Source of the DNA: Bilabrum cf. latius
Lineage: Eukaryota
Assembly (NCBI GenBank): GCA_965178125.1
Contig: OZ237766.1
Span: 789,628 to 809,627, forward strand
DNA: 20,000 nucleotides
Direction of reading: 5' to 3'
Part shown: positions 1 to 20,000 of the stretch, in pieces
Position numbering within the stretch: the stretch's first letter is position 1
Layout of the letters: every line of letters begins with the position of its first letter
The notes under the pieces: generated by a model
Seen by the model: only the letters and a program-made list of their open reading frames with translations
What the model was told of the DNA's origin: nothing
Databases searched by the model: none
Position numbers and translations under genes: made by a program

Positions 1-279
1 TCGGAGGATGCGCACTTCCTGCACTACAGCTACAAGTGCTGGCGCGAGATTTTCCTCCAAAAGTTCATGGGAAGGAACGGCGTCCTGGACTGGAAGTACG
101 ACCCATCTAAAGTATCACCAGACAAGCCGATTCAATCGTACGTGGATGGAGGGAGGGCAGCCACCGTCAGAGACACGTCCTTTCGAGACGCGAAGAAGTT
201 GGTTTAGGCTGGCTCAGTCCCCGTGCAGTTGGTCCTGCCACCGTTTTCTACGGAGCCTGTTGCAATGACGTGTACATGA
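1..279 (+). CDS. 3' end of a probable glycosyltransferase (GT92/GT2-like C-terminus), truncated by the window edge; one in-frame TAG
   Basis: Frame 1 reads SEDAHFLHYSYKCWREIFLQKFMGRNG...FRDAKKLV(TAG 205-207)AGSVPVQLV...MTCT-TGA(277-279). The 'HY..K....F..K..GR' pattern resembles the C-terminus of GT92/Glyco_tranf_2_4-type enzymes. The family call is weak. Confidence 0.5.
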
Positions 280-380
280 AACGTATCAGCTGGTAGGATG
301 CATACAGGCCTAATGAATGACGATGATCAATCCGCGGCGCCAGTAGTGGCAATGCCAGTCACGGTGCCACCAGTGGTTAC

Positions 381-497
381 GGCAGTGGACCCAGTGCTAC
401 TGCAGTGCCAGACCTGCTCTGATCGAGCGGTGATCAAGGCAAGGCACCGGGCCTCTGGACAGTGGGGCTGGACGATTTGCCTTTGCTTCAGCTGAGT
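381..497. repeat. Short copy of a dispersed repeat (possible non-autonomous or internally deleted element)
   Basis: 381-424 matches 13740-13783 (42/44 nt) and 456-497 matches 14638-14679 (40/42 nt), in the same order and orientation. Confidence 0.85.
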
Positions 498-564
498 GTA
501 CAGTGGGCCCAAGAATACATCCAAAGGCAATCTCAATCCATTCACGACAAGTTGTAAGCCCAAG

Positions 565-1694
565 TTATGCGCCATGGTCCTGCCTCACCGCCACCGCATC
601 CACCCGAATGTCGCTCCAATAGGTCCAGAATCGCAGCGAAAACCCGCTGTCTTCCAGCCATTGGGCGAGAACAGAAGGCCACACCATCTCATCCACAGGC
701 TATGCCATGGCCCGCCCTTCGTTCCAGATACGCAGCTAGGTCTCCGCTGCGGGTATGGAGAAGAAAACACGGGAGCCTATCTTGGTATGCTTGCGAAGGA
801 CCGCAAACATGTCCTTGTACAGCTCCTTCGGGATGTGCTCGAAGGAGTCCACCATGGTGATCACGTTGAAGGTACGCCCCAAGTCAAGCGTCGTCGCGTC
901 GTGCTGGACGAACTGGATGCCCGGGCTGTGCTCCCTGGCAGCAGCTAGCAAGCCCTGCGACAAGTCAGACCCGACCAAGTCCTTCACGTGCAGCTCATCT
1001 CGAATGAAGCGCGTCGTAAGACCGTTACCACAACCTAGATCAAGCACGCTCTCTGTGGACTTGATACGCACCACGTCCCTAAGCGCCTTATGGTATGCTG
1101 CAAACGCGCCGGCAGCTTGCCAGGCTCGTACCACTAGTTCATCCGTCTTTTCGCATTCATAGTGTAGAAGTCCCCAATTTTATCCATGTCCTTGGACTTT
1201 GTGTCGTGCTCATACAAGTTTGCACGGCCCAGCTTGCTCCATTCGCTGCTTGGTAGCGACTGAGTGGCAGAGGTTTTAGCTTGAAGGGCTCTGTGTTGAA
1301 GATCAGATCATTGTCTTTCTCGGAGCCTGCAGATTTGGCTGAAGTGCCTTTGGCATCACACTTCTCCGGAGAAGGACACACGGGCCAAGCATCTGCACGA
1401 GCAGTGGCGTACTAACACACGCACGGCGCACAAGATGGAGATTGCTCCTGTTCGCCAGACCGAAGTAAAACGGCTTGCCGCTACTGCGCACGCGAGTATG
1501 ACTCATGCCGGTACGAATGAGTGTGCACTCTAGAACCACATGATTAAATATCGGCTGTCCTTCGAAGCCTCTGGCCTTTCCGACGGTTCAGGCCCATCTC
1601 CCATCAGGTTACAAGCCACAAATCCGAAGACTACACCTACAGTGCCAGTGATGATGAGGTGAAGTATAGAAAAGCGGTGGTTATTGCTCCGCAT
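565..1694 (-). CDS. Class I SAM-dependent methyltransferase with N-terminal signal anchor; frame-disrupted (indel and/or intron, possibly a pseudogene)
   Basis: Core motifs VLDLGCGNG, LVGSDLS, FVQHDA, FNVITMVDSFEHIP. The frame reads through TAG at 736-738 and 700-702 (ET*LRIWNEGRAMA*PVDEMVW...FWTYWSDIRVDAVAVRQDHGA) to TAA at 565-567. ATG at 1694 gives MRSNNHRFSILHLIITGTVGVVFGFVAC (TM). Joining the parts needs a frameshift near 1100 and bypass of TGAs at 1503-1505 and 1308-1310. Confidence 0.7.
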
Positions 1695-2145
1695 GGATTC
1701 TATGGCGTATTCTTAGGCTGTGGGAGGCAACCGTTCGGCGCCGGGTTCCGGCGGCGGTTTTAGTCTTCAAGAAGTTCTTCTTGAAAGTTCAACACGCTAC
1801 AAAGGACCTTTGCAAACCCCCCGCCCTAATCAGTCATTTCGCGCACGTTTCGCAGGCCTGGTGTCAGCACTCTATTGAGAAACCTTAACCACTGCATGCT
1901 CCGCGTTCACGACATTCCTGAAGTTCGCGGGACTAAGTGAAATTGACGGCATCACACCATCCTCCGGCGGCGGTCGCAACCGGGAGATGCGACCACTGGC
2001 AAGTTGGTCGCACCAAGACAACGGATTGCAGTGCTGTATCCAGGAGAGAGGCGAAGATCGGGTGATTTCTTTGTGGCATCGCTCGCAATCCATTTGATAT
2101 ATTGCCCCTTTATCGTGGGGACGATCGACCTGCGAGGCACGAAGG

Positions 2146-4056
2146 ATGAAAGTCAGGCAAGCCCGTTCAAGACATGGACCTCCCAAACAATACTTGTCAA
2201 TGAAGGCATGGTACCTGGTGCTAGTGACAGTGGGAGTGTGCATCGCAATTTTTGTGGCAATTGTATAGGTTGCTCCTCCTGGTAGCTCTTGGACTCAATG
2301 TAGTGGAGCAAATTGTAGTCCCACCACGCAGGATTTGGCAGATAAAGACTCAATTATAAGCGCGTCAGAGCCTTCGAAAGCACATATCCTGATGTCGTTT
2401 GATGGCCCTGATGTAGCTGGCTTCCCAGTGGCCGCAAGATCGATCTTGATGGCCACGGCAGACCCCGCGCTGGTTCATTTCCACCTGGTCACGCCGCAGG
2501 CATCTGCCGCCAAGGTGCGTTAGGCTTGCACGTCTTGTCTTGACGGCATCGGCGGAATCGATTCATCAGGCGCAGCAGCATGCAGCACTGGGTAGCCGCA
2601 CCAAGGGGTGTTTTGCTGCGAAGACCAAGTACACTTCCTCCGCGGCGTGGACACAAGTACGACCACGGCTGTGGGTATCGCGGCCAAGCGGGTCTCCTCC
2701 CCTTTCAATGCGGCCCGGTTCGCAGGGATGGATGCAATGGTGGATGTGGCAGACCGTTTTGTGTACATGGACCCCGACATCGCAGTCGCAGGTGATGTGC
2801 AGGAGCTGGTGCACATGGACCTGGGGGGTTAGGCCGCCGCCCTTGCACGGATCCTGCACGTCAAGGGCGAGCAGAAGCAATCCATGTGCTCGGTAAAGGT
2901 GGGAGTGGACTGTAACGGACCTGGCGTGAGAGAGCGTTTGCTGGGGCTGGGAGTGGATACCAAGAAGCTGTCCAAAGAATGGGTGGGTAACGCTGGGATC
3001 GTGGTGATCGATGGAGCCAAATGGGGGCAGCAGCGGCTCGGCGACGCCTCCCGCGAGTGGATGGCCAGGAATGAAGGGGGCAAGATGTGGTAGCTGGGCA
3101 CGCAGCCGCCCACAAACCTGGCACTCCTAGGAAACAGGGCGGAGATAGATCCTCGTTGGAACACGCCTTGGATACGGCTTGGTCGCACGTCAGAAGGGGA
3201 TGAGGCCCCACTGCTGATGCATTTCCCCGGAGAAGAGTATAAGGCATGGCGGACTAGCCCAAAGAACATGGCCAAAGTCATCAAGGGGCACTGGGCCGCC
3301 CAGCGTTACTACGACCTTAGCGTCCTGTACCACCGCGCGTGTTTCGTGGGGGTGGGCAGCGAGCCGGCACCAGAGGCAGGGGAGGGCACCCGGCGATGGG
3401 GCTGGGATGCAAAGACAGGGATACGGGTACCACCACGGGAAGCTGGGGTGCTCTCACGGAGCGCAGACCCGTTCCGCTTTCGCCGCGAGCCCGCTGTGCT
3501 TGTGGTGGTTGCTCTGGATGGGGAGGAGCGGGAAGTGGCAAATCTGATTGTGGGGGCCGAGAAGAGCCTGGCCTCGCCCTGGCCCTGGACCGCGCTGCAG
3601 GTGTTTGTGGCCGCGACGAGTGAAAAGGTGGTCAATGTGGTACGAAGGAAAGCTGATTGCATCCCGGGAGGCACGGGCGAGGGCGAAGAGTTATCGATGG
3701 AGACGTGCAGGTCCATTCGTGGAGTTGTCATGGGCACCCCGATGCAGCATGGCGACCATGGGGGTGGGCTATAGATAACCGGTGCATCGGTTGTGTGTCG
3801 CGATGGTGGCGAGTGGGACCCGTAGGGGGCTAGACCGCTAAGGGCTGGCATTTGGCGGGAGACCCAAGGGGCCTACATGCGCGGAGGTGCACCAGACAGG
3901 CTGGGCGATCGGTTTGGAGCAGTCGAAGGTGCCCTTGGAGAGCTGCCCAGCTATGTGACGAGGGCCATCGTGGTGCCGTGGCCAGGTGGCGGGACCGTGG
4001 TGGGTGACGCGTGGGAGGCACTGCATGGGCCTGGCTCGTGCTACCAAGCAGGCTAA
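2146..4056 (+). CDS. Glycosyltransferase family 8 (GAUT/GATL-like) type II membrane protein, 636 aa with TAG read as sense
   Basis: One frame from ATG 2146 (MKVRQARSRH...WYLVLVTVGVCIAIFVAIV TM) through TAGs at 2266, 2521, 2593, 2830, 3091, 3772 and 3823 to TAA 4054-4056. Motifs FVYMDPDIAVAGDVQEL (DxD), GNAGIVVID, LGTQPP, MHFPG...KAW. Collinear with the paralogue at 14941-16884. Confidence 0.9.
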
Positions 4057-4282
4057 GCTCATGTAGCCCACCGTTTGGTTGGGTTGCGGTTCAACAGGGG
4101 CTCCATGTACGTGCAATGGCCACAAGTGATCTACCCCGTTACAGTACACTACAGTCCGAGGGTTCGTAGCAAGTCACCTTCTCTGTATCTCCCCACAGCT
4201 GGTACAGGCTGGTTGTACCACTCCTTTACCGTGTGCATCTGGAGTAGAACAAGCTGCTCCGTGGTGATGACCTACGCGCTGG

Positions 4283-6658
4283 TCAGTGGCGTTTCTTGTG
4301 CAACCGCTTGAGCTGCTCCGTGGTGATGGCCTCCGGGTCATGCTTGGTCAGCGGCTGCATCGCCTGCGTCACCTGCTCCTGGGTGAGCACCGTCCCGGCA
4401 GGTACCCCGAGTCCAGAGTCCCAACCGTCCGGTACTACTGGCTGCGGCAGGTGGTGCGCCACGATGCGGCCTCCGATGGCCTCGAGCGCCATCGGCTCCA
4501 CTGGGGCATGCGCACCCCTCGGTGTGTACGTCATCTCCCCCACATATACCTTGCCGTTCACCTCGAACAGATCCACGCGCACAAACGGGAAGGGCTCCGA
4601 GAGCTGCTGGGCGATGCGCACCATCTCTGCCAGCTTGGATGGGGGTTGAGAAGCTTCCTTTGCTGGGTACGGGTACTCGAACTCAACCACGTCTGGCAAG
4701 AAGGTCCAGTCGGGCAAGTAGAACCCCCGCTTATTCTTGCCTTGCTCGAAGCGCCCGTCCACTTCTTGCACGTAGATCACGCTGCCTCGGGAGCAGAAGA
4801 ACTTGTAGTCTGCTGGGATGGCGCCCCCTTCGTACAGCCGCTCCAGGATCATCGACCGCCGCACATGGTCATACTGTTTCTCGCGGCCGTTGCCCTGGCG
4901 TCGTTTTGTCACCTTAGATAGGACACGGTCGAATATTTCGCCGGAAAGCCCCTGCCCCTTGCAGCCCGGCAAGCCAAGCTCTTTAGCCACGTTTATGAAG
5001 TAGCCTTGGCAGATGATCATCTTGCCATCACGCAGGATGGCATTGACGCCAGCCAAGTTGCTGGCCTTGAACGCAAAATCAGACAGCCCGTCCACCGGAG
5101 GCCGGAAATTCGCAGCCACCTCTGGAAATACCACGCCCAGTGTATCCACAGAATGCCCTTCCCCAATCGCTAGGCGTGCAAAGTGCTTCACAGATGCCTT
5201 GTCTGTGAAGGGGGCATAGTTGGTTTGTCCCTAAGACGCTCCCATTCGCACGGTGAGGTCGGTCAAGCGGATGCCATCTGCCCTGGGAGGCTCCCTCGGG
5301 TTGCTGCGCACCTCCCCAACAGGCACAGATGGACGAATGGGCCCTGGATGGAACCAGTCTCTGAAATAGCGGTAGTACCACACGTACTGCAGTCGCTCAT
5401 ACTCCACGGACTCCATCCCGGGCCTAGCCACATACCTGCACTCCAGCAGGCGCAGCGTCTCCTGCTTCACCGTCAGAGGGTTCGGGTCACCGCCAGGAGG
5501 ACATACAGCCAACTCGACCCCAGCACTAGATGGTGCACGCTGCCCCGGCACCGGCAGTCCCTCCCACGGCTTGATCCTGTCCACTAGCCGCAGCAGCACG
5601 GGCGGTGAGGGAGCCATGGAGCTTCCTTGCCTGACTGAGGCCGGACAACCAGGAGAGGAGATTCGCAGGGCACCCTGGCCTGCCTCTGCTTCCCGCAACA
5701 GGCCCACTGAGACTGAGTCCATGGGTTGCACAATGATACTGGAGGGGAAGAATTCGGTAACAGATCCCTGGGTCTAGGTCAGGGCATCCCTTTGCCCCCC
5801 TTCATTCAGAGGGCACCTCCAATCTGACCCTGCCAGTCTCCACCGCTATCCATGCACGAGCAAGACCTCAGCACTAGCCGCGCCAGCACCAACTGGCATG
5901 GATGAACCCCTTACTCTCGATGACATCCCGCCCCCGGAAAGCACAACTGGCCTGGTGGTCCCGTAGCCGTCTTCATCCTCGAAACCCTACATGAGCTGCA
6001 TTGGATCCCGTGACGCTATCAGATGGGGATCCGGCAGCACCAGCACTGCCCCCGGTGCCGGCTGCTGCTCCTCTTCCTATCCGGTGGCAGGCAGAGAGGC
6101 GCACGAGGCCAGGGACACGAGCACACGGCGGTCAGCAGCCGAGCGGGTGTCGTCCTCCCACCGAGCTGGGGCGCGAGAAGCGGCGGACCGAGTCGTGGAC
6201 TGCTTCCCCTCCTTCCTAGTCTGCTGGTCCGCCACTCGAATGATGGAGTCGCAGGTACCGGTGGGCAGGTAGCACGGGCACGAGCCCTGAATCTCGGTCC
6301 AGGCAAGGTCGTCTGCCAGCACGGCAAAGCGGATGTCAGAGCTACGCGAAGCTCTCTCATACAAGGACCGTGCACCGATCAGGAAGCTAGGTGTGTTCGC
6401 ATAATCAACAGGGGCAGCAACCAGAAGGGTCAAAGCCGTCTGGTCAGCCTGTGCTCGTCTGAGCGTAGGCTATGATCTCCCCAGTATCGCCCATCCTGCA
6501 GCCACACAGACAATAGCAATCAAAACGCTATTTGTGTAACGACTAGCCACGACGCTGCAGCAAGAAGTGTACACCTGCGTGGCCGTGGATCCAACAACTC
6601 GTCGCAGTGATTGCTGTTTCTCCTTGCCTTCTCTAGAACCAGTGTGTCGACGTTGCAT
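4283..6658 (-). CDS. Fusion of signal anchor + degenerate GT8-like domain + TupA-like ATP-grasp, 791 aa with TAG read as sense
   Basis: ORFs 6470..6658, 6077..6433, 5231..5731 and 4283..5191 share one frame, joined only through TAGs (6470, 6077, 5987, 5846, 5774, 5231), ending at TGA 4283-4285. TupA-type motifs FTDKASVKHF, FAFKASNLAG, MILERL, DYKFFC, FPFVRVDLF, YVGEMTYTP. The N-terminal half resembles the neighbouring GT8s (FLIGARSLY, VLPDPHLIASRD, LLVHG*RW). Confidence 0.85.
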
Positions 6659-8168
6659 GCTCCAGCTGATGTGCGAGGAGCCTCGTGGAACAGTTTGTAT
6701 ACTCTCTGGTGCTGGATGCTAGCGCACTACTAGGACTCCCCAGGGTGCAACCGGTAGCACGCTCTAAAAGTCTGCTAGTGGTAATAACAGAAGAGACTTA
6801 AAATTTGCTAGACATCTGGCCAAAAGAGGAGCTGAATCGAACATTACGTTAAGACACGCGCGCCAGCATGAGATATGCAATGCAACTTCGGGGCGCAGTC
6901 TCGAGCCCAAACGGAAAGTACAACTCAGGCATATGCAAACCATTTAAATGGCCCGTCTTACCTTTGTAGGGCTAGCGTCTACTTGAGTTTCCGAAAGGGT
7001 CGAATAGTGCGTTGGGAACCCAAAATCACCCACAAAAGGTAAGGTAACGTGCACTTTCCCCCGTCGGCCCGTCGGCCGAGTCCGGTCGCATAGGAAGGAT
7101 GTGGTCGCACTGGGTTGCCAATGTAGTCGTCCAAAATGTGGCATCAGCTGGACAGTTGCTGAAGGCTGGTCCTAACGATAAGGTTGCAGTTCGACAACAG
7201 GGGGAACATGAGACGCAGGCCACCAACGAGCTGGGACGAGGTGGCAGCGGGCAGCGGACAGGCCAATGAGTAGGGGAGGTGATGGAATTTGCAGTCAGGT
7301 GGGGAGGTCTGATGTGCCCAGAGATGATCACGAAGGCAGGCTGCTGCTGGAAGTGTAGCGCTGAGAATGATTTGGGGGGAGGGAGGGAAGTGTGGCAGAG
7401 ACGAGTCAGCACCGTGCTCTGCACATAAGCTTAGCGTGTCTGTTAATTGAGAAGCGTGTTATATGGTTGGCAGCGAACGGATTCCCGCACAGTCGATCCG
7501 GAGTCCGGACGGGAGGCATGAAGAGGTGGAGTGAGACGGGCCTCCGCATTTCTCTACTTTATTGGAACCATCGCAACTGACGGCGATCGGGCCCGGATCT
7601 GACCATGTGTAGGCAGGAGTAACAAAGTCAATTGTATCAGAGTTCATCGCAGTTGTGCCAGCCACACCAACCCAAACCACTGGTGGATTGGCCATTGCAG
7701 GGCATTGCCACTTTCACGCATGAGCACCTTGCTTCAGGCTACCACCCACTGGAGTAGTACCAGTGCCACTAGCACGACATAGCAGTGTTTACCATACAGC
7801 GTAGGTGCCGTGCAAGAAGTATATTTCAGCCGCTCTTGCGTATTGCACGGTAGAAGCTGGTGCTATTCGCAATTTGAAGTTGAGCATAATACATGTCAGT
7901 GAGGAGCCGAAAGACCCACATGCCGGAAAATCATGTATTAGCTGTAAGCTACGGTACACAATGCGAATTCAATGCCCGCCTTCTGTTTCAGGAGTGTCTC
8001 CAACTATAAGTTTGCAGGTAGCGTCAGTTGGTCCCTGTCACTTGTTGCCCCCGATTCACCCAAAGGTTCTTTTTCCCGATTATTATTTAGTTTTAATGTT
8101 AGCAGGTACTTCATTGGTGTGGGGTGACTTGCAGGTCGCTTGGTCATCGTTTTGCCCAGAGACAACTG

Positions 8169-11100
8169 ATGGCAGCCATGCTATTCGCCGGAGCTGTTCT
8201 AGTCTTGGTGGCGCTCTTCGCGAGCAATGTAGTTCTGCCGTCTGTAGCTAATCGAGTTAAGCTAAGTCCTCCTGGCGCTACGCGAGGCCAACAGCCAGCT
8301 GTCCGTGTCGCTGTGCCGGGCGAAGCCCCGAGCACAGGAATAGGCCGGGGGTGCCCCGCCGAAGAGCAATCGCACGTGCTCTTCTCGTTTGATGAGCTGG
8401 ACTTGCCGGGCTTTTTCATCGCCACTTCCTCTGTGTTTGCCAACACCAAGCGGCCGGAGTGCATCAGGGTGCATGTGCTGTGCCCCTCGTAGGCCGAGGC
8501 AGACATCCGGGCCTCGTGCGCCTGCTCCATGCCTCCCTAGGCCTGCGCCTCCCTGCACTTTGTGCGCACGCGGCCCTTGACCAAAACAGTCACTGGCTCC
8601 AACACCCGCGGCAAGCACCTGGACTCCCCGTACAACCTGGGTCGGCTGGAGGCTTTCGACGCACTGGCCCCTTCTGTGGGCAGGATCGCCTACCTGGACT
8701 CTGATGTACTCGTGCTGGGGGATGTGCGGGAGCTCGTGCAATTTGATCTGCAAGGTACCGCGACTGCCTTCGCCTGGGAGCAGGACAGGTCTATGTGCAA
8801 CCCATGGGGGGTCAAGTGCGGTCACCCCGCTCTGAAGCAGGCAGGCCTTACGAAACAGTTGCTGCAGCGCAAGATGGTGGGCAATGCAGGGATCATGGTG
8901 GTGGATCTACAAGAGTGGAGGAAGCAAGATCTGAGCAGACGGGCCCGGCTCTGGTCTCACCTGAACCGCGACGGGGAGCTTTTTCTCCTCGGTTCGCAGC
9001 CGCCCATTATGCTGGCCACCATCAACAGCCGGGCTCAGCTGCCCACTGCCTGGAACCAGAAGAATGAGAAGAAAAACGACACGCAGCTCGTGCACTTTGC
9101 GGGCCCGGATAGGCCCTGGCGGGTGGATCGCCCCGGCCCGTACGCCGAGGCCAAGGCATTCCTGCGATGCCGCATGGGCTACAAAGAGGCCTCCACCTCG
9201 CGTGACCGCAATATGGTGGCTTATTCGAGGTATATGGCGGAGTACGGCGTCAGGACGGAGGGTGAGGCGCTGCCGCAGACCGTCAAAGACGTTCCTCTGC
9301 GTGACCTGCTAGCCTGGCGTGCAAGGCAGCCAGTGGCACAGCGGCTGGGCGTGTTTATAGACAGGGCAGCCCAGAAGCACTACGTCAGGACGGTGCTGGG
9401 GCAAGAGGGGTACTCAACGGAGACGCTCGCTGTGCTTGAGGCAGGACCACAAGGGGATGTAGGCGCGCTGGACAGGGACCTGCTGCCCCGAGGGCTTCTG
9501 GCGAGCTCGTCCTCCTCCACGGTGAGGGGCGGTGGCGGACTAGGTGCCTCGCCGGGGTCTATGCATCTCATCGTGCGGCCGCTGCACATGCCTGATCTGG
9601 TGATACACGTGACGGATGGCGCCGTGGATTCATCCCCCTGGAAGAAGGATGTGGGCCAGGCTGTGACGGAAGGACTGATCCGTAAGTGGCTGGGCGTGGT
9701 GACCCAGCGGTGCCATCGCTGCGAGACAGAGCTACAGAACGCGGGTGTGACGAGGGGGCTGATTGTGGAGAGGGAAGAAGAGTCGCTCGAGGGGCAAGAG
9801 GGGGTGCGCCTGCTGCATGACGGCCTCAAGATCTGGTGCACGAGGGGGGTGCCCATGCTGGTGGAAGTCGAGACGCGTGGAGGGGGCGGCAAAGGGCGCC
9901 GCAGATCGTTCTACACCCCCGGATGGGACCCCCTCCGAGTCAGCAAAAAATACCCGATGGATCCAGCGGCCAGCTCTCGCTAGGCCCCTCTGTTGCTACC
10001 AGAGGCCCTTCGGGTGGCTGCCGAGCTGAGCAAGCCCTTCTCCTTCGTTCGGGTGGATCTGGGCTCGATAGACAACCGCATCGTGGTGCAGCGGTTCTCT
10101 TTCGTGCCAGACGGGGTGGACGGCCCCACCTTTGAGCCCCCTGCCTTTGGATACGCTCTATCTCGGCTCGTGCAAGCCCCCCCTTCGCATGCTGCTGCCA
10201 AAGCCGCCATGCTGCCCTTTGTCAAACAGCAGGAGTGCAGCAAGACCTTGGTGACGGGCGCGGCCGGATTCATCGGGAGCCACTTGTCCAAGGAGCTGCT
10301 GGACAGTGGGCGCCCCGTGGTGGGGATCGACTCGTGGAATGCGCTGGACGAGGAGCACAGCGCGCTGATGGACGCTCGGGTGGCGGGGCTGGAGAAGGAC
10401 AAGGGCTTCCACCTCGTGCGATCAAGCACCTGCAACGTGCATGCCATGGTGGCTCTGCTCAGGGAACACAGGGTCTGCGACATCGTGCACCTCGCAGCGC
10501 AGCCGGGGGTGAGGCGGTCCACTCGCAGGCCCATGGAGACGGTAGAACTCAACGTGGGCTGCTTCGCCAGCATCCTCGAGGCTGTAGCTCGGTTCAACTC
10601 CACCATCCGGGTCGTGTACGCCTCCAGCTCCTCCGTGTACGGGGCCAATGCGGTGTCCCCCTTCGTGGAGACGGCATACCCCGTACCAGCCAGCATATAC
10701 GCCGCTTCCAAAGTGGCGGACGAGGCGTTGGCGCAGTCGTACCGTAACGTGCACAAGCTGAACCTGCTGGGCTTGCGGTTCTTCACCGTGTACGGGCCCC
10801 GGGGCAGGACGGACATGGCTGCGTACATGTGGGCGCGGGCCATCGAGGCGGGTGAGTCCATCAAGGTGTTCCAGACTCCTTCGGGGGTGGAGATGGCCAG
10901 AGATTTCACGTACGTAGGAGACATTGTGAGAGGTATCCACGGGGTGCTGCCTCGACGGGACGTGACGGGCGTGCTCAACATCGGTAAGGGCAGTCCAGAC
11001 AAGGTGTCAGACCTGATCGGCGAGCTGGAGGTGTGCTTCGGCAAGAAGGCCGTGCTGGACAAGGTGCCGCAGCCGCCGGGCGACGTACCGATCACCTACG

Positions 11101-11240
11101 CGGACACGACCAAGATGGCGAGGCTGGTGGGATACCGCCCTGAGGTGAGCTTGTAGGAGGGCATCCGGCGCTTCTGTGAGTGGTTTAAGTCGGACGAGGC
11201 CAAGGCAGTGAGGCGCAAAGCAGCGGTGGCTCTTGGCTGA
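8169..11240 (+). CDS. Triple fusion of signal anchor + GT8 + TupA-like ATP-grasp + UDP-glucuronate 4-epimerase-like SDR, about 1023 aa with TAG read as sense
   Basis: One frame from ATG 8169 through TAGs at 8490, 8538, 9981 and 11154 to TGA 11238-11240. GT8: IAYLDSDVLVLGDVREL, GNAGIMVVDL, LGSQPP, HFAGPDRPW. TupA-like: FIDRAAQKHYV, LKIWC, FSFVRVDL. Epimerase: LVTGAAGFIG, HLAAQPGVR, YASSSSVYG, YAASK, LRFFTVYGPRGRTDMA, RDFTYVGDIV, SL*EGIRRFCEWF. The exact start is uncertain. Confidence 0.9.
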
Positions 11241-11430: not shown

Positions 11431-11451
11431 TCTAGACTCTAGACTCTAGAC
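11431..11451. repeat. Tandem repeat (TCTAGAC)x3 between convergent gene ends
   Basis: tctagac-tctagac-tctagac read directly from the sequence. Confidence 0.9.
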
Positions 11452-11723
11452 GTCATGATTGTACAACTAGTGGGTGCGTAAACTGTAAGTTTTGCTACTC
11501 TAGATCGTTGGTTCACCATGAGTCGGCTGCCTAGGCTCGGGCATGCACGGCCTGCACTCGTACTTGGTCGATCCTGCACTGTTGCATTACCCGCAAGCCC
11601 AAGAACGGCACTGCTGTTGCCACAAGTATGTGTGGTCTAGGCTAGCCGTTCATCGAGACCTCACAAGAGCACTCCATGGCACGCGGAATCCGGTTGAACC
11701 CCTCTCTCTGCCCCAGAGGAGGC

Positions 11724-13508
11724 TCAAAGTGGATCTACATGTGCCCTACCTTGCGACTTAACAGTGCCTTGCTCCACATAATTCTTGGTGATCGCAGCCC
11801 TGAGTATATCCACGGCAGAGGGACCCGTGAAGTCCGCTCGATACAATGCGTCTGTAGGCCCACGAGCCACGCCGTAGAAATTGAGCATCTCGGCAATCGC
11901 TCGCACTCCCTCCATCATCTCTCGCACCTTGCTGTCGGGAATCGCGCGCAGAATCGGAAGCAGCTTGCCTTGGCGAAACATCGCGTAATTGACACGCACG
12001 CTGGCCAGGTGCCAAGGGATGAATTCTCGAAACGGCATCTCCACATTGTCTTGCACGACGGCAGGGACACATCCAGATACCAGCATGTCTACCAGCCGGT
12101 GACTCCACAAGTTCGGATGCCACCCGGGGAGGTACAGACAAAACTTGGACCGCTTCAGCAAGTCCATGTATCCAGATACTCTGCCGTTTACGTAAACGAC
12201 ACCATCCGTCTCCTCGTTCATGTGCCCGTACAGCCGAAGGCCTGACTGACGCACTCCCTGCGAGTACGATGAGGACTCATGTTTCGGATATAGTACAGAG
12301 CCCACGAAGGTCATCGTGACGGGCCGGTTCTACAGGGGGGGCCATCGGTGCGTGGACTTCAATGCGTACCTCCCTATCGTGCCCACATCTTTATGCGCCC
12401 GGAACCCTAACCCTAGAGGGTAGCTTGGTGCAACGGTGGCAAAGATTGCGCCATGAAGACCAAAGACGTGCTGCATCCACGTCCTGCACGTCTTGAGATC
12501 TCGCCACGCCCACTTTGCGTGATCGATGGCCCACTCCCTCCAATCCATACCGGATGACGCGAGATGCTTCGCGGTAAGGTTCCAGCCAGCGCCTGCCTTC
12601 GGTGTCTGTGGAATATCTGTTTGCATGCCGAGCAAGACTTCGTTGAGGCTCCTCCCTCCCCCAGTGACTATGATGAAGTCTGCGCCGCCAGATTGCTCCC
12701 ACCGGCGTGCGAGATATGGACGCCGCAAGACACGGCGAACCACATGAGCCATGGTGTCTGCACACACACGGGTCTTGATCGACGGGGACATGGGTACCTC
12801 GGCTGTCCTCTCGATCTTCAGGGCCGCAAGGGCGATCGACTGCGTGTGCAGAGGCAGCACAATCAGGTCGGCCTGCTCCGGGCCCGCAGCCCACCCTGTG
12901 GTAGCAAGTGCACTGCTCGAAGTCTTCGTCGCAACTGACGATCTCAGAGCGGCCGCTTGCTGCCGCTGGAGGGCATCAAGTATTGCCCACTCGGATGCAA
13001 ACCCTGCCTCTGCCGTTATGGACGTTCGGAAGTCCTTTGGTAGCATACCGATACCAGATAAGCCTTTGGGATCTCGTAGATCCGCAAAACCGGCTGCTGC
13101 AAAATAGCCGGATTGATCAAGCGGGCTTGTGCCCCACTTCTTGCAATTATCCTTCGTAGGCTTCGTGCGCATACATGTAGTAGGGCACATGCGGGATTCT
13201 TCTCTTATTTCTTCCCCAAGCACGAAAAACTGCAGCTGCCCACCGGCTTCAGTCGCAGCAGCGTTCAGCCGCTGCTGCACTACACGTACGACTTTGTCGT
13301 AGGGCTGTTCTCCCCGCACCTGCATCGGTGCTTGTGTTGAGACTACTGTTTCTTTTTGCCGAATTAATTGCTACCCATTTGGGCTACTGGCACCGCGCGA
13401 TGGGATATAGGCAGCCATAAGCAGCGCAAGTGCTGCCACTACTGCTACTACTGCAAGAAGAAATAAGGCTAGACGGGAGCGATTTTTCATCTTGGCTCTA
13501 GCAGGCAT
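11724..13508 (-). CDS. Exostosin-family (GT47) type II membrane glycosyltransferase, 594 aa with TAG read as sense
   Basis: ATG 13508 (MPARAKMKNRSRLALFLLAVVAVVAALALLMAAY, TM), in frame through TAGs at 13371 and 12330 to TGA 11724-11726. Motifs EQADLIVLP, RWEQSGGADF, FRAHKDV, RSKFCLYLPG, SHRLVDMLVSGCVPAVVQDNVEMPF. Confidence 0.9.
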
Positions 13509-13739
13509 TTTGTTTATTATTTATTCCTGATTGCGGCTCTCTTCTCTTCCAACTATGCACAAGATTGTGGCAAGGTACCTGATTCGCGTCCATTCGTAAA
13601 TGATAATCACACACAACAAAACCTTCAACTTTCGGCGCCGGTATCCGTCTAAAACTTGCGCTACTCCCGAGTCCGCCATATTGACTATATTCCTGGGCGC
13701 TTTGTCAGCATCCTGCCCCTGCTGAAGTCCATTGGAAGT

Positions 13740-14679: not shown

Positions 14680-14940
14680 ATAAGATCGATGGCGACAAAA
14701 CCAAGGATGCCAGCGCGGGGGTGAACCGGTGGGAAATCAAATTTACTACAAACATCAGGTCAAATACTAAGACTAAACACGGCGATGCATGCAGTAGAGG
14801 TGGATCCGGGGGCCCTCAGCTCCGGCTGGGAGGGGCGCGGGTTGGCGGGAGAGCCCGACTGAAATAGACTAGTCTACCTTACGGTTGGCAGGCAATGGCT
14901 CTAAGGGTAATTCCGGACCCGCTTTGCCGCGACCCCCTAC

Positions 14941-16884
14941 TCACTATGCTCGGGGGCACAGCGCGATGCCGGCTGGATCTACCTTGAACTACACCTCTGG
15001 ATGCACGAGCACGATGGCTGCCCGCACGTACTTCCACACCTTTCGGAGGCCCTGCCGCGCCATGGTAGCTCGTTTCTCATAGCGGTCACCCGACTCCCGC
15101 CCCTCCTGCCACTCGTTCTACTAGTTTTGCTAGGGCCCCCTCAACCCTGTGCCAGCGAAGTGCCGCAACTCATCCTACCCCAGCATACGAAAGGGCAGCA
15201 GCTCCTCCAGTCCCTGCCCTCCAACCTGTCGGCACGCCACGAACGGCTCACGCCCATTGATACTTATCTCTCGGCTTGCATGTTTGGTTGGCAACATCAG
15301 CGAAGCACGCGTGGCCACCCCTTGCCCACTCTCCTTGTATTCGGGAGCAGCGCTAATCCTCTCGATGGCCCTGCATGTCTCGTTCGAAGGGCCACTCACT
15401 GACCGCAAGCACGCCTACACAGCATCCTCGTACACTTCCTTGGAATCAGTAACCGCCATCACATGCAGCGCCGTCCACGGCCAGGGTGCTTCCAGCTGTC
15501 GCTCGGCACTCCTCAGAGCCATAAGGAATGCCTCGCCATCTCCTCTCAGCAGCACCATCACAAGCACCACGGGCTACCTCCTCCAATCGAAGGGGACCGA
15601 CTGCCGCGACACAACTCCTGCTGCGGCTGCAGGCACTCGGGTCCCAGTCGCTGGGTCCCACGTCCAGTACACGCTGGATGCCACCCTAGGTGCAGGCGTG
15701 CTGCCCGAACCCACGAAGCAAGCCTCGTGGTACAGCACGCTCAGGTCGTAGTAGCGCTGCGCTGCCCACCACCTCCGCTTCCCCACCAGACGCATGTTTT
15801 CCACACTAGCCCTCCACGCCTTGTGCGAGGGTCCCTTGAAATGCATAAGCTTCGGGGCCTGATCGACACCATACACTAACCCCGCCATGTTCCAACCCGT
15901 GTTCCACGTTTGCGGGATGCGGGCCCGCCTGCCCAGCAGCGCCAGGTTCGTGGGCGGCTGCGTGCCCAGTGTCCACATCTTGCCCCCCTGGTTCCTGTCC
16001 ATCCACGTCTTGGCCTCATCGCCGATGCCCTGCTGCACCCATTTTTGCGTATCGATGACCATAATCCCAGCATTGCCCAGCCACTCTTTCTCGAGGCGTG
16101 ACACGGACATGCCCCAGCTCTGCAGGGACTCCTTGACACGCCGGTTCTTGCAGTCCAAAGCGGCCAGCGCGAAGCACATCGTGGGCCACTTGGTGCCCCG
16201 ATGGCCAGGCCTGGGGCACATGGCAGCCGGCTGGCCCTCTAGCTCCATCCAGACGAGCTCATGCACGTCCCCGATCACAGCGATATCAGGGTCCAAGAAC
16301 GCAATCCTGCGGGCATGAGCGGCCATGGCGTTGATCGCATCAAACCTTGCTGCGTTGAAAGGAGACTTGATTCGCTCCGCAGCCGAACCCACCACGGTTT
16401 CACGGTCCGTGCTGATGCCATCTAGGAAGTGCAAGTGTACGTCGCAGCAAAAAGCGCCAGGCTTGGGTGGATTGCAAGCTGGGCCTTGCAAGCCTAGCCC
16501 ATCTAGGCACCGGGTGCAAGCTCTTCGGACAATATCGTTTGCGCGAGGAGACACGACCAAATGGAAATGGATGAGTGAGGGGTCAGCGGCAGACTGCAGG
16601 ATGGAGCGGGCGGCCACTGCGAATCCTGGCGCATCGGCCTCATCAAACGACATCAGGATATCTACCTACTCTCGAGGTTTTGGTGCTACCTCCAGCCCAA
16701 GTCCGGGTGGCATTGGAGATTTGATAGCCTCTGTAACCCCAGCGCGGTGAGATATTGACAAGGCTATCGTAATGGTAGCCGTGACCAGCACCAAAAGAGC
16801 TATCAAGACGCGGTGCTGGACGAAAACTGCAACCCACCGCGACCTTGCCTGTGGTGACCGCCGCTTGCTAGAGCTTTCCATCAT
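14941..16884 (-). CDS. Glycosyltransferase family 8 type II membrane protein, paralogue of 2146-4056, 647 aa with TAG read as sense
   Basis: ATG 16884 and TM VLIALLVLVTATITIALSI. One frame through TAGs at 16666, 15574, 15415, 15175, 15130, 15121, 15118, 14989 and 14944 to TGA 14941-14943. Motifs IAFLDPDIAVIGDVHEL, GNAGIMVID, LGTQPP, HFKGPSHKAW, and WAAQRYYDLSVLYH (identical in the paralogue). Confidence 0.9.
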
Positions 16885-17690
16885 CAAAAAGCCAAAATAT
16901 GCCTGTGGAATCCCGTGGAACTACACTGCCGCTGCACGTATTGTGGCGACGAGATGCTTCCAACCGCTGCGACGCCGCCTCCACTGCTTGGCCGACCAAA
17001 GCTTTGCAAGCCCAGCACCTCGTAATGAAAGGTTGTTATTCTAAACCGTGTCGGGAAGAAGTAGTTGAGCGCGGGAATCCAAACAGGGAACTCCGAGATA
17101 ATCATTCCTACTTTGCAGCATAGTAACGTGTGGTTTTGTATATCAGACGCATACTGCCACAAGCATGCTCAGCCCAAAGCTAGGGAGGACTTCGCCAAAC
17201 CGGCGGACAATCCGTTTATTCAACTAGCTATTATTGCTCATGCGTTTTTGATCCAGCCATGGCTTCAGTCTCGGCCGCGGCCATACGCTCTAAGATGCTG
17301 CGAGTACTTGCGAGAACCGCACCTGATGCGTCTTGCTTGCGGATACCTCGAACTGCGCGACAGTTCTCGCCACCGCACTTACGTCGGAAACCCCGATTAT
17401 GTTGCTACAACAGGCTTTGCACATTTTGGCTGGATCGGATGGCCAGGGCTTGGCGCGCTCTCGATCCACCTCCGTTTGTTGCCGATTGCAAGCCAAGCTG
17501 AAGTGGTTGCAACTTCAAAATTAGCAATTCTGTGGCATGTTGCGTGCTATTTTGAGCGCTGAATGACATCGAATTGGTCCCCGCTGCACAGGAGCGGAAC
17601 GACCGTGAGCTGGGTCGGGCTCAATAAAGTACTGCTTCATTTTTAGGTACTGCTCGAGTGCAGCTCCTGGTTATATCAATTTAGCTCGCA

Positions 17691-19007
17691 ATGCCGTCGC
17701 CCGCCCTTCCGCGGCCGCTGCTGAAATCTACTTCCCGTCAGGTGATCGTTATCAGCGTCTTGGTTCTTGCTATTGTCACGCTCCCGTTGGTGATTCCATC
17801 ACTAGCAGGGTTTCGTGTGAACCGGGGCTCGCAGTACGCTGTGCAAGTACCGACAGAGCCGCCAAGCGCTTCCGTTGATTCGCCTGTCTCGTCGGGCTAG
17901 GGAGCACAGAACCTCGAAGGTCCAAAACCTCCATTACAGTTAAAGCGGGACGGAAAATGGAGAGGCGACATGTCGGTGCGGGATGAAGGAATCACAGTGG
18001 TCCTGTTGAACTTTAAGCGTCCCGAGCATCTCAAGAAGATCGTACGGGCTTACCTCGAGATGCCAGAGGAATTCATCCGCGATGTTTACGTGTTCAACAA
18101 TGACGATATTGATTTCCGGGATATGTTCGACCCCTTGCAGGGAGGGAGCTCTCGGGTGAGGGTAGTGGACGCCCACGCCAACCTTGGCATCGGGAATTCA
18201 CGATTCTTTGCTGGGACCCTGGCGCGGACTAGGGCCGTCCTGACGCAAGATGATGACTTGCTCTTGACTAGGTAGGGAGTGGAGCGTTTGTACGAGCATT
18301 GGAAGCGGGAACCGGACCGCATCCATGGCGCCTACAGCCGAGGCCCAACTCTGAATCGTAAGGCTGGGAGCAGCAAAAGGGGCGCATCCGTGCTCTCGAC
18401 CGACGACGCCTCCCCCGTCGAGGAGCGCATGGCCCGGAAGGTGCGGTACGAGATGTACAACCACCATCTTACGGAGGGGCAGTATCGAAGGCAGAAGCAG
18501 CGGGTAGAGCAGCTGCACAGCCAGGCAAACGGCGCAAACAGTGTGTGGGTCAGCGGGTCCGCCTGGAACGCGCCCTCGATGCCTCTCCGGTACGATGGCA
18601 TGACAGAGGAGGAGGATCTCGCCTCTGCCTGCCCCATCCTAATCACGAGGGTGGTCATGTTTGACCGAGCGAGGGCCTACCAGTACTTCCGCTGGGTCTT
18701 GGAGATGCAGGACACGGTGCCACAATAGAAGCCCTTTGGTCACGGGGAGGACCTATTGCTGAGCCTCCTGTCGATCCGCGAATCGGGGGGCAAGCTGAAC
18801 CGCGCTTGGAGGGACGTCTCCAGTGAAATCTCGGAGCTGCCGCAGATGAAGGTTGGCGTGTCTACTGTGAACAGCGACCACCTTGACTTCCGAACCATGT
18901 TCCTGCAGCTGGCGTGCGACAGGTTAGATTTGCCGTGCTGGGACTGGATCATGCTGGACATACCTACCGCGAGGAAGAAGCCCAAGCCCACCACTCAAGG
19001 CTAGTGA
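17691..19007 (+). CDS. GT64-like (EXTL2/EPC1-type) GT-A glycosyltransferase, type II membrane, 438 aa with TAG read as sense
   Basis: ORFs 17691..17900, 17970..18275, 18279..18728 and 18756..19004 share one frame, separated only by TAGs (17898, 18273, 18726, 19002), ending at TGA 19005-19007. TM VIVISVLVLAIVTLPLVI. Motifs ITVVLLNFKR, VYVFNN, NSRFF, RTRAVLTQDDDLLL, WKREPDRIHG, GEDLLLS. Confidence 0.85.
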
Positions 19008-19093
19008 TTAGAACCTCCTGACGGCAGACTGGGAGGTGTTACGTTGGGAGCTTTCTGTCACGTATGACATCGTGACTTCCATGAAAGCTTCTT

Positions 19094-20000
19094 TTACAGA
19101 CTCAACCACCCAAATACAACCAGAAATGGCATCGAACACAGAGCCGTCGCCATGTGCCTGAATCCACCGATGGATTTGTCCATCAGCGGAGACACACAAC
19201 GAATTCTCCATATCTTACCGTATCTTCCATCCAGGGTGGTCGCAGTGGGTGGTCTCGTTGAAGCAACGCAAAGTATCTCCAAGTTAGTTGGGATTAGCTG
19301 GACGCCCGTGCTTGAGAGCGCGGCCTGTGGGGCTCGCTGCAGCTCAAGGTGCCTCCAACCAATATCGATCGCGGGCAGCCCGTCGGCCTCCTGCCGAATG
19401 TAGGTGTTCATGCTCTTTGTGGATGACCACCGTCCAAGACGCTGCGCAATGCCGTGCTCGATGCCCAGCCGCACCATCGTGGTGGTGCTGGTGATGCGGA
19501 AGCTGTGCCCATGCAACCACTCGCGTCATCATGGCGGCTTGCACAGCGCCGCACCAGCCGTACCATGTGCCGCATCTTGCGGCGACCGTACAATGCGATC
19601 TCCGGGAACTACAACACCTGACTGTCGTGACAGGCGTGGTGCAGGTCGCGTGGTGAGGTAACTGGGATACCTGCTGCGGTCAACGTCGTCACGACGTGCC
19701 GGACAAGAAGGTGGACGGGGCAGCATGTGCTACCCTGGACACCATATGTATTCACCGACACGGGGAATCGAGCTGTAATTGCCACCGTGGCAGGCCCACC
19801 CGCCTTGGTGAACCGCAGGTGCAGGGAGCAGCTGATCACCTTGTTGTCCTCGATTGCCCAGGATACATGCCTGGGGCGGTGCGGGGCAGAGGCAGCCCGG
19901 GCCTCTCCCGTTGCCTCACCCAGGGGCATAGTGCCCCCAAACGCCAGTGCACCAGCCAACTAGGCTGCACTTTCGCCGGGGGGTGGATGGCTGGAACTCG
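19094..20000 (-). mobile_element. Decayed tyrosine recombinase of a DIRS/Ngaro- or Crypton-like transposable element, running off the window edge
   Basis: Motifs in the expected order: ALAFGGTMPLGEA (R-box, with Pro in place of Arg), LHLRFTK, CCPV, GHSFR, LGRWSS...YIR. A frameshift near 19520-19530 separates the CPV-containing and HSFR-containing frames. Confidence 0.8.

What the first reader, a model, noticed from the sequence alone, without database searches (positions are those of the whole stretch)
1..20000. Non-canonical genetic code: UAG read as sense (most likely Gln) throughout the window
Seen: the six complete genes contain 32 in-frame TAGs (7+6+4+2+9+4) and no internal TAA or TGA. 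More TAGs occur in the partial gene at 1-279, the methyltransferase and the recombinase. TAGs fall inside conserved domains and between the TM anchor and the catalytic domain, with the frame intact on both sides. Evidence for Gln: DLGG*AAA (2830) aligns to paralogue ELEGQPAA; VHG*RW (5846) aligns to IDTQKW and VDLQEW; the run P*QN**NE (15118-15135) reads as PQQNQQNE; SL*EG (11154) and RR*PV (15574, paralogue RREPA) fit Q or E. Other sites align to R and T, so Glu is not fully excluded. Established: UAG=Gln with UAA retained as stop (translation table 15 type) is rare in nuclear genomes (Iotanema spirale, some phyllopharyngean ciliates) and is also found in some phages. Inference: a GC-rich eukaryote with Golgi-type GT8/GT47/GT64 genes and a DIRS-like element may be a further independent origin.
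Basis: partly seen in the sequence, partly recalled or inferred. Interest (0 to 1): 0.97.

Follow-up and report, generated by a model that had tools for sequence, protein, structure and literature searches.

The report
UAG read as glutamine, eukaryote unidentified
An unidentified GC-rich eukaryote reads the stop codon UAG as an amino acid, most likely glutamine, and keeps UAA and UGA as stops, which adds one more organism to a rare but already known kind of genetic-code change.

Summary
With start codons trimmed, six glycosyltransferase-type genes carry 32 in-frame TAG in 4,143 codons. They carry no internal TAA or TGA, where about 74 would be expected by chance. A methyltransferase gene adds two more TAG. 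All seven genes end in TGA (5) or TAA (2).

Nine TAG lie inside Pfam domain envelopes. Three runs that behave like RNA keep T-A-G. They show gene-wise depth and GT..AG joints that the DNA run lacks. 30 of the 34 TAG lie in listed contigs with no differences. This rules out introns, editing, assembly error and pseudogenes.

Glutamine is the best-supported residue:
- At 8 TAG sites covered by 69-86% identical relatives, the relatives have Q, Q, Q, K, T, W, S, S.
- Three of three relatives' fragments end where the window has CAG.
- One relative's gene is split exactly at a window TAG.
- A likelihood test gives Gln a posterior of 0.998. Its control recovers sense codons in 98.7% of trials.

TAA is not sense: 14.8 would be expected and 0 are seen.

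The organism is unidentified, and no tRNA or eRF1 could be examined. An independent origin is therefore open. Verdict: real, a new member of a known kind.

The parts
1..279 (+). 3' end of a gene cut by the window edge, 92 aa, 1 in-frame TAG, no Pfam match
565..1179 (-). Class I SAM methyltransferase ORF (204 aa stop to stop). TAG at 736-738 and 700-702. Ends in TAA at 565-567.
   Evidence: Methyltransf_25 E=8e-16; the Methyltransf_23 envelope 38-182 spans both TAG
2146..4056 (+). g1: type II membrane GT8 glycosyltransferase, 636 aa. It has 7 TAG, starting at 2266, 2521, 2593, 2830, 3091, 3772 and 3823. Ends in TAA.
   Evidence: Glyco_transf_8 E=1e-19 with envelope 180-369 spanning 2 TAG. The start codon is shared with relative P0130. 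The X5 contig 2058-4616 shows 0 differences.
4283..6658 (-). g2: degenerate GT8-like N-half plus TupA-like ATP-grasp, 791 aa from the likely start (frame open up to 6943). It has 6 TAG, with low coordinates 6470, 6077, 5987, 5846, 5774 and 5231. Ends in TGA.
   Evidence: ATPgrasp_TupA E=3e-17; coordinates; the X5 contig 4610-6706 shows 0 differences
6772..6961 (-). Intron in the 5' leader of g2 (CT..AC on + strand, i.e. GT..AG on the gene's strand)
   Evidence: The joint 6771>6962 is seen in X6 and X7 and not in DNA run X3
7899..8105 (+). Intron in the 5' leader of g3 (GT..AG); an alternative donor gives 7944-8105
   Evidence: Joints 7898>8106 (X5) and 7943>8106 (X6); sequence read
8169..11240 (+). 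g3: fusion of GT8, TupA-like ATP-grasp and an NAD-dependent epimerase (UDP-glucuronate 4-epimerase-like), 1023 aa from the ATG at 8169. It has 4 TAG, starting at 8490, 8538, 9981 and 11154. Ends in TGA.
   Evidence: Pfam: GT8 2e-20, TupA 9e-7, GDP_Man_Dehyd 1e-47. The epimerase part is 45% identical to proteins named UDP-glucuronate 4-epimerase by JGI.
11724..13508 (-). g4: GT47 exostosin-type glycosyltransferase, 594 aa. It has 2 TAG, at 13371-13373 and 12330-12332. Ends in TGA.
   Evidence: Exostosin_GT47 E=1e-22; the X5 contig 11477-13553 shows 0 differences
14941..16881 (-). g5: GT8 paralogue of g1, 646 aa from the likely start (frame open up to 17121). It has 9 TAG. The last sense codon is TAG (14944-14946), followed directly by TGA.
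   Evidence: Glyco_transf_8 E=4e-20; relative P0121 is 78% identical; the X5 contig 14722-19093 shows 0 differences
17691..19007 (+). g6: GT64/GT2-like glycosyltransferase, 438 aa. It has 4 TAG. The last sense codon is TAG (19002-19004), followed directly by TGA.
   Evidence: Glyco_transf_64 E=2e-9; coordinates
19094..19998 (-). Frame-broken tyrosine-recombinase-like remnant inside repeated DNA
   Evidence: Phage_integrase E=0.004, below cut-off. Its X3 contig shows 9 differences and the flank has raised depth.

Best explanation
The window comes from the nuclear genome of a GC-rich eukaryote (58% GC, GC3 69%) in which UAG is an ordinary sense codon. It is most likely decoded as glutamine. UAA and UGA still end translation. 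This is the pattern of NCBI table 15.

Shown here:
- UAG sits in frame in every gene of the window, at 0.8% of codons. If it means Gln, that is 17% of Gln codons.
- It is kept in the RNA.
- It lies inside conserved domains.
- It is shared at one site with a related organism.
- Across close relatives it exchanges mainly with CAG.

Inferred, not shown: a tRNA-Gln with anticodon CUA, one base change away from CUG, reads UAG, and eRF1 has lost or weakened UAG recognition.

Two of the seven genes end in TAG-TGA. I read these as leftovers of former UAG terminators now backed by an adjacent UGA.
For: 1. Frames: 32 TAG, 0 TAA and 0 TGA in 4,143 codons of six genes, against 73.7 expected TGA+TAA.

2. 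Domains: 9 TAG lie inside Pfam envelopes. These are g1 GT8 (2), g3 GT8 (2), g3 epimerase (1), g4 GT47 (1), g6 GT64 (1) and the methyltransferase (2).

3. RNA:
- Runs X5-X7 have depth that follows the genes. In X5, depth is 33-106 over genes and 2-6 between them. DNA run X3 is mostly flat at 39-67.
- X5-X7 carry GT..AG joints that X3 lacks.
- The listed X5 contigs with 0 differences cover 30 of 34 TAG.
- None of the 28 places with other letters falls in a TAG.

4. Residue:
- At 8 of the 34 TAG sites a relative of at least 60% identity covers the site. The relatives read Q, Q, Q, K, T, W, S, S.
- P0121, P0122 and P0123 each end one residue before a window CAG (3 of 3).
- P0130 ends exactly at g1 TAG-150 and P0122 resumes 5 codons later. 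Both are recorded on a contig of 1886 nt.
- Likelihood gives Gln a posterior of 0.998 on 8 sites. With 11 sites the gap to Ser is about 20 log units.
- In the control, each of 56 sense codons was treated as unknown using 8 random sites. The true residue was recovered in 98.7% of trials on average.

5. TAA: 14.8 TAA would be expected if TAA:TAG followed CAA:CAG (49:106), and 0 are seen (P = 4e-7). g1 ends in TAA and g5 in TGA, each 4 residues after a cysteine that aligns between g1, g5 and relative P0178.

6. No fixed context: 24 different codons follow the 34 TAG.
Against: - Only 3 of the 8 ortholog-covered TAG sites show Q. Both sites covered by P0123 (69% identical to g3) show S. More distant relatives also show S at three further sites (g2-63 and g2-271 in P0277 at 38%; g5-489 in P0178 at 32%).
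- At g1-316 the ortholog and the paralogues all have T in a conserved motif.
- A code with UAG=Ser and UAA/UGA kept as stops exists in the green alga Scotinosphaera (PMC8271138, passages read).
- The relatives' DNA was not seen. That their fragment ends are TAG codons, rather than contig ends or other stops, is inferred.
- 26 of the 34 TAG sites have no close relative aligned.
- No tRNA gene is in the window, and no genome, eRF1 or peptide data could be examined.
- The RNA label of X5-X7 is the tool's guess (for X5 'probably DNA'). I rest it on depth and splice joints only.
Confidence: 0.85

Rival explanations
1. UAG is a sense codon but stands for another amino acid. Serine is the most serious candidate (as reported for Scotinosphaera). 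Lys, Glu, Leu, Tyr or Trp are also one base change away from UAG.
For: - P0123 has S at both g3 TAG sites.
- Distant relatives have S at g2-63, g2-271 and g5-489.
- T sits at g1-316 in the ortholog and the paralogues.
- K and W each occur once.
- The pattern 'UAG sense, UAA and UGA stop' with Ser is described in PMC8271138 (passages read).
Against: - The closest relatives (78-86% identical) show no S at 6 sites, and Q at 3 of them.
- All 3 fragment ends face CAG.
- Likelihood puts Ser at 0.001 on 8 sites and about 20 log units behind Gln on 11. Lys, Thr and Trp score lower.
- L, E and Y appear at none of the 8 ortholog sites.
Confidence: 0.08
2. UAG has two meanings: sense inside genes and stop near the 3' end, as in the context-dependent codes of Condylostoma or the karyorelict ciliates. 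On this view g5 and g6 really end at their final TAG.
For: Two of the seven genes have TAG as their last sense codon, directly before TGA. The chance of this at the in-frame TAG frequency is P = 1.3e-3.
Against: - The 3'UTRs look ordinary in length. The RNA-like contigs of X5, X6 and X7 begin at 14722-14724, about 219 nt past the g5 stop, and those of g4 lie 225-247 nt past its stop. That is unlike the very short 3'UTRs I recall for the ciliates with such codes.
- The g5 tail carries six further TAG upstream of the last one. The tail aligns with P0178 and g1 up to the last few residues, so translation passes through these TAG close to the 3' end.
- The sample is only seven genes.
Confidence: 0.06
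3. The genes are dead copies, for example through C-to-T decay of duplicated genes. Alternatively, the TAG are removed or changed before translation, by introns or by U-to-C RNA editing, or they are assembly errors.
For: Four of the genes are paralogues, which some repeat-directed mutation systems target. CAG to TAG is a C-to-T change.
Against: - Decay would also produce TAA from the 49 CAA codons and TGA from TGG or CGA. Neither is seen.
- The single-copy g4, g6 and the methyltransferase carry TAG too.
- Relatives keep 69-86% identity over 149-469 aa fragments with few, in-frame gaps.
- The RNA-like contigs are colinear with the genes and keep the T.
- Four runs from three studies agree at every TAG they cover.
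Confidence: 0.01

Closest known systems
Nuclear codes with UAG=Gln and UAA/UGA kept as stops (NCBI table 15 pattern). They are reported for the fornicate Iotanema spirale and the ciliates Protocruzia tuzeti, Hartmannula sinica and Trochilia petrani (PMC11687900 and PMC5304391, passages read).
   Same: Only UAG is reassigned, Gln is the best-supported meaning, and UAA and UGA terminate genes.
   Different: The genes here are 58% GC and their coding regions have no introns. They lie on long contigs (up to 212 kb in DNA run X3) with 5'UTR introns. They encode GT8, GT47 and GT64 type II membrane enzymes. Nothing ties the window to ciliates or fornicates, but its lineage is not established.
Scotinosphaera (Ulvophyceae): UAG=Ser, with UAA and UGA as stops (PMC8271138, passages read)
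   Same: The same codon pattern (UAG alone is sense) in a eukaryote that could plausibly carry plant-like GT8, GT47 and GT64 genes. Some TAG sites here face Ser in relatives.
   Different: Ser is about 20 log units less likely than Gln on the 11 informative sites. The closest relatives never show Ser. No TGTAA motif lies within 200 nt downstream of any of 7 stops except one (g2, at +139). That this motif is the chlorophyte poly(A) signal is recalled, not tested.
UAR=Gln codes (table 6): many ciliates, Dasycladales, Cladophorales and Trentepohliales, diplomonads, oxymonads. Amoeboaphelidium is also listed as cited in PMC5304391 and PMC11687900.
   Same: A stop codon is reassigned to Gln, and UGA is the main terminator (5 of 7 genes).
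   Different: TAA is never in frame (0 seen, 14.8 expected) and ends two genes. The two Amoeboaphelidium genomes are 40% GC (PMC10608142, Table 1 read). Accession numbers of their NCBI proteins are quoted in that paper, yet none of the hits whose source names I saw was a near relative of the window's proteins.

Membership tests
UAG=Gln nuclear code with UAA/UGA stops (table 15 pattern) | In-frame UAG in genuine, expressed protein-coding genes | tested here: met
   There are 34 TAG in 7 genes, 9 of them inside Pfam envelopes. The TAG are kept in RNA-like contigs that carry splice joints.
UAG=Gln nuclear code with UAA/UGA stops (table 15 pattern) | UAG codons correspond to Gln in homologues | tested here: met
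   Q occurs at 3 of 8 ortholog-covered sites, and CAG faces 3 of 3 relatives' fragment ends. The Gln posterior is 0.998, and the control recovers sense codons in 98.7% of trials. The sample is small, and 26 of the 34 sites are uninformative.
UAG=Gln nuclear code with UAA/UGA stops (table 15 pattern) | UAA and UGA are not used as sense codons and do terminate genes | tested here: met
   There are 0 internal TAA or TGA in 4,143 codons. Five genes end in TGA and two in TAA. Under a UAR=Gln code 14.8 TAA would be expected.
UAG=Gln nuclear code with UAA/UGA stops (table 15 pattern) | UAG no longer serves as a terminator | tested here: inconclusive
   g5 and g6 end in TAG-TGA. ORF logic cannot tell which of the two codons stops the ribosome.
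UAG=Gln nuclear code with UAA/UGA stops (table 15 pattern) | A tRNA-Gln with anticodon CUA | not testable with these tools
   The window holds no tRNA gene (ARAGORN; Rfam), and no genome is held.
UAG=Gln nuclear code with UAA/UGA stops (table 15 pattern) | Changes in the eRF1 N-domain that weaken UAG recognition | not testable with these tools
   eRF1 is not in the window and no genome is held.
UAR=Gln code (table 6) | UAA is also read as Gln | tested here: not met
   0 TAA in frame against 14.8 expected (P = 4e-7). TAA ends g1 and the methyltransferase gene.
UAG=Ser code (Scotinosphaera type) | UAG sits where homologues have Ser | tested here: not met
   S occurs at 2 of 8 ortholog sites, both in the 69% relative, and at 0 of 6 sites covered by the 78-86% relatives. 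The Ser posterior is 0.001.
UAG=Leu codes (rhizarian exLh, TARA phyllopharyngean ciliates) | UAG sits where homologues have Leu | tested here: not met
   L occurs at 0 of 8 ortholog sites and is not among the six best residues.

The most novel reading that the evidence does not exclude
The window organism and at least one related organism known only from unnamed read-archive contigs form an undescribed, GC-rich, non-ciliate eukaryotic lineage. That relative shares an in-frame stop at g1 codon 150. A second, more distant relative has a fragment end facing another window TAG. On this reading the lineage reassigned UAG alone to Gln independently of Iotanema and the ciliates. The TAG-TGA gene ends would then be fossils of the former UAG terminators, which could give a way to date and order the steps of a stop-codon takeover.
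Probability: 0.4. Interest if true: 0.75.

Novelty: new member of a known kind. Interest (0 to 1): 0.62.

Why it matters
Cases where UAG and UAA have parted ways are few. The papers I read list one fornicate, an uncultured rhizarian, Scotinosphaera and a handful of ciliates. These cases bear on why the two codons usually change together.

A GC-rich organism is the expected setting for a UAG-only change, because UAA is rare there. A culturable or assembled example outside the ciliates would allow direct study of the tRNA and eRF1 changes.

There is also a practical consequence. Any annotation of this assembly with the standard code will break most genes into fragments. That is how its relatives already appear in public protein collections (P0130 and P0122; P0277 and P0274).

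Tried and rejected
- Whole-genome look-up: no genome is held for this window.
- Distant homologues as a guide to the residue: the columns are too variable, both for 120 epimerases and 138 GT8 proteins.
- g6 found no homologue at E <= 0.001 among proteins of 240-767 aa.
- Organism identity:
  - Close relatives are Logan-only fragments without names.
  - Among 10 further GT8 hits, only three listed proteins (two clusters) carry names. These are Pelagophyceae sp. CCMP2097, at 27% identity, and a JGI 'lipopolysaccharide biosynthesis glycosyltransferase'.
  - The Atlas search with P0121 gave only generic GT8 clusters.
  - Two scans of metagenome contigs gave nothing or three loci at 25-30% identity. 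I did not study those loci.
- Aphelid hypothesis: dropped because of GC content (40% against 58%) and the lack of named NCBI hits.
- No listed holder run is on record as RNA. The RNA reading of X5-X7 is mine.
- The weak joint 3595>3706 in g1 (depth 2, one run, 110 nt, which would shift the frame) was treated as cryptic or noise, because X5 at depth 33 is unspliced there.
- tRNA and Rfam scans of the window found nothing.
- Literature: seven searches listed no report of UAG=Gln in a GC-rich non-ciliate, non-fornicate eukaryote.

Full report
**What is in the window.** The window is 58% G+C. Under the standard code its longest ORF is 473 aa. Reading TAG as sense opens six ORFs of 449-1038 aa. Pfam identifies all six:
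- g1 (2146-4056, +): GT8.
- g2 (4283-6658, -): a degenerate GT8-like half plus a TupA-like ATP-grasp.
- g3 (8169-11240, +): a fusion of GT8, ATP-grasp and an NAD-dependent epimerase. The epimerase part is 45% identical to proteins that JGI names UDP-glucuronate 4-epimerase.
- g4 (11724-13508, -): GT47.
- g5 (14941-16881, -): GT8, a paralogue of g1.
- g6 (17691-19007, +): GT64/GT2-like.

There is also a class I methyltransferase ORF at 565-1179 (-), the end of a cut gene at 1-279, and a frame-broken recombinase-like remnant at 19094-19998 (-). The remnant's Pfam match (E = 0.004) is below the cut-off.

**Checking the observation.** The six maximal ORFs hold 37 in-frame TAG and no TAA or TGA in 4,329 codons. 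Their other five frames hold 297 TGA, 181 TAG and 88 TAA. Trimmed to the likely start codons, the counts are 7, 6, 4, 2, 9 and 4, which makes 32 TAG in 4,143 codons. At the off-frame rate, 73.7 in-frame TGA+TAA would be expected and none is seen. In-frame TAG (0.8% of codons) is as common as off-frame TAG, so the codon is not avoided at all.

Nine TAG lie inside Pfam envelopes. The seven genes end in TGA (5) or TAA (2).

**Are the TAG really in the message?** Seven runs from three studies hold the stretch. I laid one DNA run (X3) and three runs that the tool guesses to be RNA (X5, X6, X7) on the whole window.
- X3 has mostly flat depth of 39-67 outside the repeats.
- X5-X7 have depth that follows the genes. 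In X5, depth is 33-106 over genes and 2-6 between them.
- X5-X7 carry GT..AG joints that X3 lacks. These are 7898>8106 and 7943>8106 in the leader of g3, 6771>6962 in the leader of g2, and 14360>14450.
- I therefore treat X5-X7 as RNA. This is my inference, and the tool itself calls X5 'probably DNA'.
- The listed X5 contigs with no differences and no gaps cover 30 of the 34 TAG (coordinates).
- None of the 28 places where any run reads another letter falls in a TAG. The nearest is 3094, one base past the TAG at 3091-3093.
- No joint removes a TAG. The only joint inside a coding region (3595>3706 in g1) has depth 2 in one run and would shift the frame, while X5 at depth 33 is unspliced there.

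Introns, RNA editing and assembly error are thereby excluded for the sites covered. The introns also show that the organism is a eukaryote.

**Which amino acid?** Distant homologues do not help. The column under the epimerase TAG is E 40, A 25, Q 13, K 10, R 9, S 7, T 6, D 5, G 4, H 1 of 120. The GT8 columns are just as mixed.

The searches did find close relatives. All are unnamed fragments predicted from read-archive contigs:
- P0130 (83% identical) and P0122 (86%) match g1.
- P0121 (78%) matches g5.
- P0123 (69%) matches g3.

At the 8 window TAG sites that these fragments cover, the relatives read W, Q, K, T (g1), S, S (g3) and Q, Q (g5).

The reverse view is cleaner. P0121, P0122 and P0123 each end one residue before a position where the window has Gln, and all three codons are CAG. 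P0130 ends exactly at g1 TAG-150 and P0122 resumes five codons later. Both are recorded on a contig of 1886 nt. So the relative appears to carry the same in-frame stop and hence the same code.

I did not see the relatives' DNA. That these ends are TAG codons is inferred from the coincidence. Three of three random positions being Gln has a chance of about 1e-4 at the 4.5% Gln-plus-TAG frequency of these genes (my arithmetic).

**A small likelihood test.** The test uses the closest ortholog residue per site, together with an identity-scaled BLOSUM62 model.
- It gives Gln a posterior of 0.998 on the 8 sites (Ser 0.001, Lys 0.0004).
- With the three fragment ends added, the gap to Ser is about 20 log units.
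- As a control, each of 56 sense codons with at least 8 such sites was treated as unknown, using random sets of 8 sites. The true residue was recovered in 98.7% of trials on average. The worst codon was GTA, at 48%.
- Gln codons are themselves poorly conserved in these proteins. CAA faces Q in 41% of its sites and CAG in 61%, so 3 of 8 for TAG is not out of line.

**Evidence that cuts the other way.**
- Both P0123 sites are Ser.
- Relatives at 32-38% identity show Ser at three more sites.
- g1-316 faces Thr in a conserved motif.
- Scotinosphaera is reported to use exactly this codon pattern with UAG=Ser (PMC8271138, passages read).

I therefore put Gln at roughly 0.85-0.9, not higher.

**UAA and UGA.** CAA:CAG is 49:106 in these genes. 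If TAA were Gln in the same proportion to TAG, 14.8 in-frame TAA would be expected. None is seen (P = 4e-7). g1 ends in TAA and g5 in TGA. Each stop lies 4 residues after a cysteine that aligns between g1, g5 and relative P0178. This speaks against the UAR=Gln code of table 6.

**Does UAG still stop anywhere?** The codons after TAG are diverse (24 different codons after 34 TAG), so no read-through context is needed. However, g5 and g6 both end in TAG-TGA. Two of seven genes having TAG as the last sense codon has a chance of 1.3e-3.

I read these as former UAG terminators now backed by an adjacent UGA. A dual stop/sense use cannot be excluded from seven genes.

Two things argue against dual use. 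The g5 tail carries six more TAG upstream and aligns with P0178 and g1 up to the last few residues. The 3'UTRs also look ordinary, at about 220-250 nt judged from where the RNA-like contigs stop.

**Dead genes?** C-to-T decay of duplicated genes would also turn CAA into TAA, and TGG or CGA into TGA. Neither occurs. Single-copy genes carry TAG too, the relatives keep long in-frame similarity, and the genes are transcribed. This rival is rejected.

**Who is it?** This is unknown.
- No genome is held.
- The best named GT8 hit is a pelagophyte protein at 27% identity.
- The Atlas gave generic GT8 clusters.
- The metagenome scans gave nothing close.
- Amoeboaphelidium, the non-ciliate with a stop-to-Gln code that I first suspected, has 40% GC genomes (PMC10608142, Table 1). 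Accession numbers of its NCBI proteins are quoted in that paper, yet no named near relative turned up among the hits whose source names I saw.
- No TGTAA lies within 200 nt after six of the seven stops. That this motif marks chlorophyte poly(A) sites is my recollection.

**Comparison with what is known.** UAG-only reassignment to Gln is described for Iotanema spirale, Protocruzia tuzeti, Hartmannula sinica and Trochilia petrani. UAG-only reassignment to Leu is described for a rhizarian and for TARA ciliates, and to Ser for Scotinosphaera (PMC11687900, PMC5304391 and PMC8271138, passages read). The window fits the first group in every feature I could test. The tRNA, eRF1 and peptide evidence could not be tested.

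Seven literature searches listed no report of this code in a GC-rich eukaryote outside those groups. The library is incomplete and supplements were closed, so this is a weak negative.

**Verdict.** It is a new member of a known kind of code variant, in an organism that still has to be placed. Whether it is an independent origin is open.

Noticed in passing
window 14944-14949 and 19002-19007: g5 and g6 both end with TAG directly followed by TGA. Two of seven genes having TAG as the last sense codon has a chance of about 1.3e-3 at the in-frame TAG frequency. These may be fossils of former UAG terminators.
   Followed up: partly
window 370-500 versus 13729-13783 and 14638-14682: Two short direct repeats (87% and 93% identical) lie 30 nt apart in one copy and about 855 nt apart in the other. 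The stretch between them in the long copy (13788-14663) is covered by an RNA-like contig with a minus-strand intron at 14361-14449. It has no Pfam match. It looks like a small repeated or mobile unit with a deleted copy.
   Followed up: partly
window 1809-1964 and 19059-19125: Depth in DNA run X3 rises to 491 and 748 against about 45 elsewhere, and contigs of all runs break here. High-copy repeats flank the gene cluster.
   Followed up: no
window 6772-6961, 7899-8105 (alternative donor at 7944): There are introns in the 5' leaders of g2 and g3, while all six coding regions are colinear with the RNA-like contigs. A weak joint 3595>3706 (depth 2, one run) lies in g1, next to the residue where relative P0122 ends.
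   Followed up: partly
window 8169-11240: g3 is a single 1023-aa frame that joins a GT8 domain, a TupA-like ATP-grasp and a UDP-glucuronate 4-epimerase-like domain. The epimerase part is closest (41-47% identical) to proteins that are bacterial wherever the source names an organism. g2 pairs a degenerate GT8-like half with the same ATP-grasp.
   Followed up: no
relatives P0277 and P0274 (one contig length, 2911 nt); P0121 and P0276 (7376 nt): In related organisms, the g2-like and g5-like genes also appear as several standard-code fragments on contigs of the same recorded length. P0277 ends exactly opposite the window's TAG at g2 codon 295. A g2-like fragment is recorded on a contig of the same length as a g5-like one, so the cluster may be partly conserved.
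   Followed up: partly
window 19094-19998: The tyrosine-recombinase-like reading frame is broken between two overlapping ORFs and lies in repeated DNA.
   Followed up: partly
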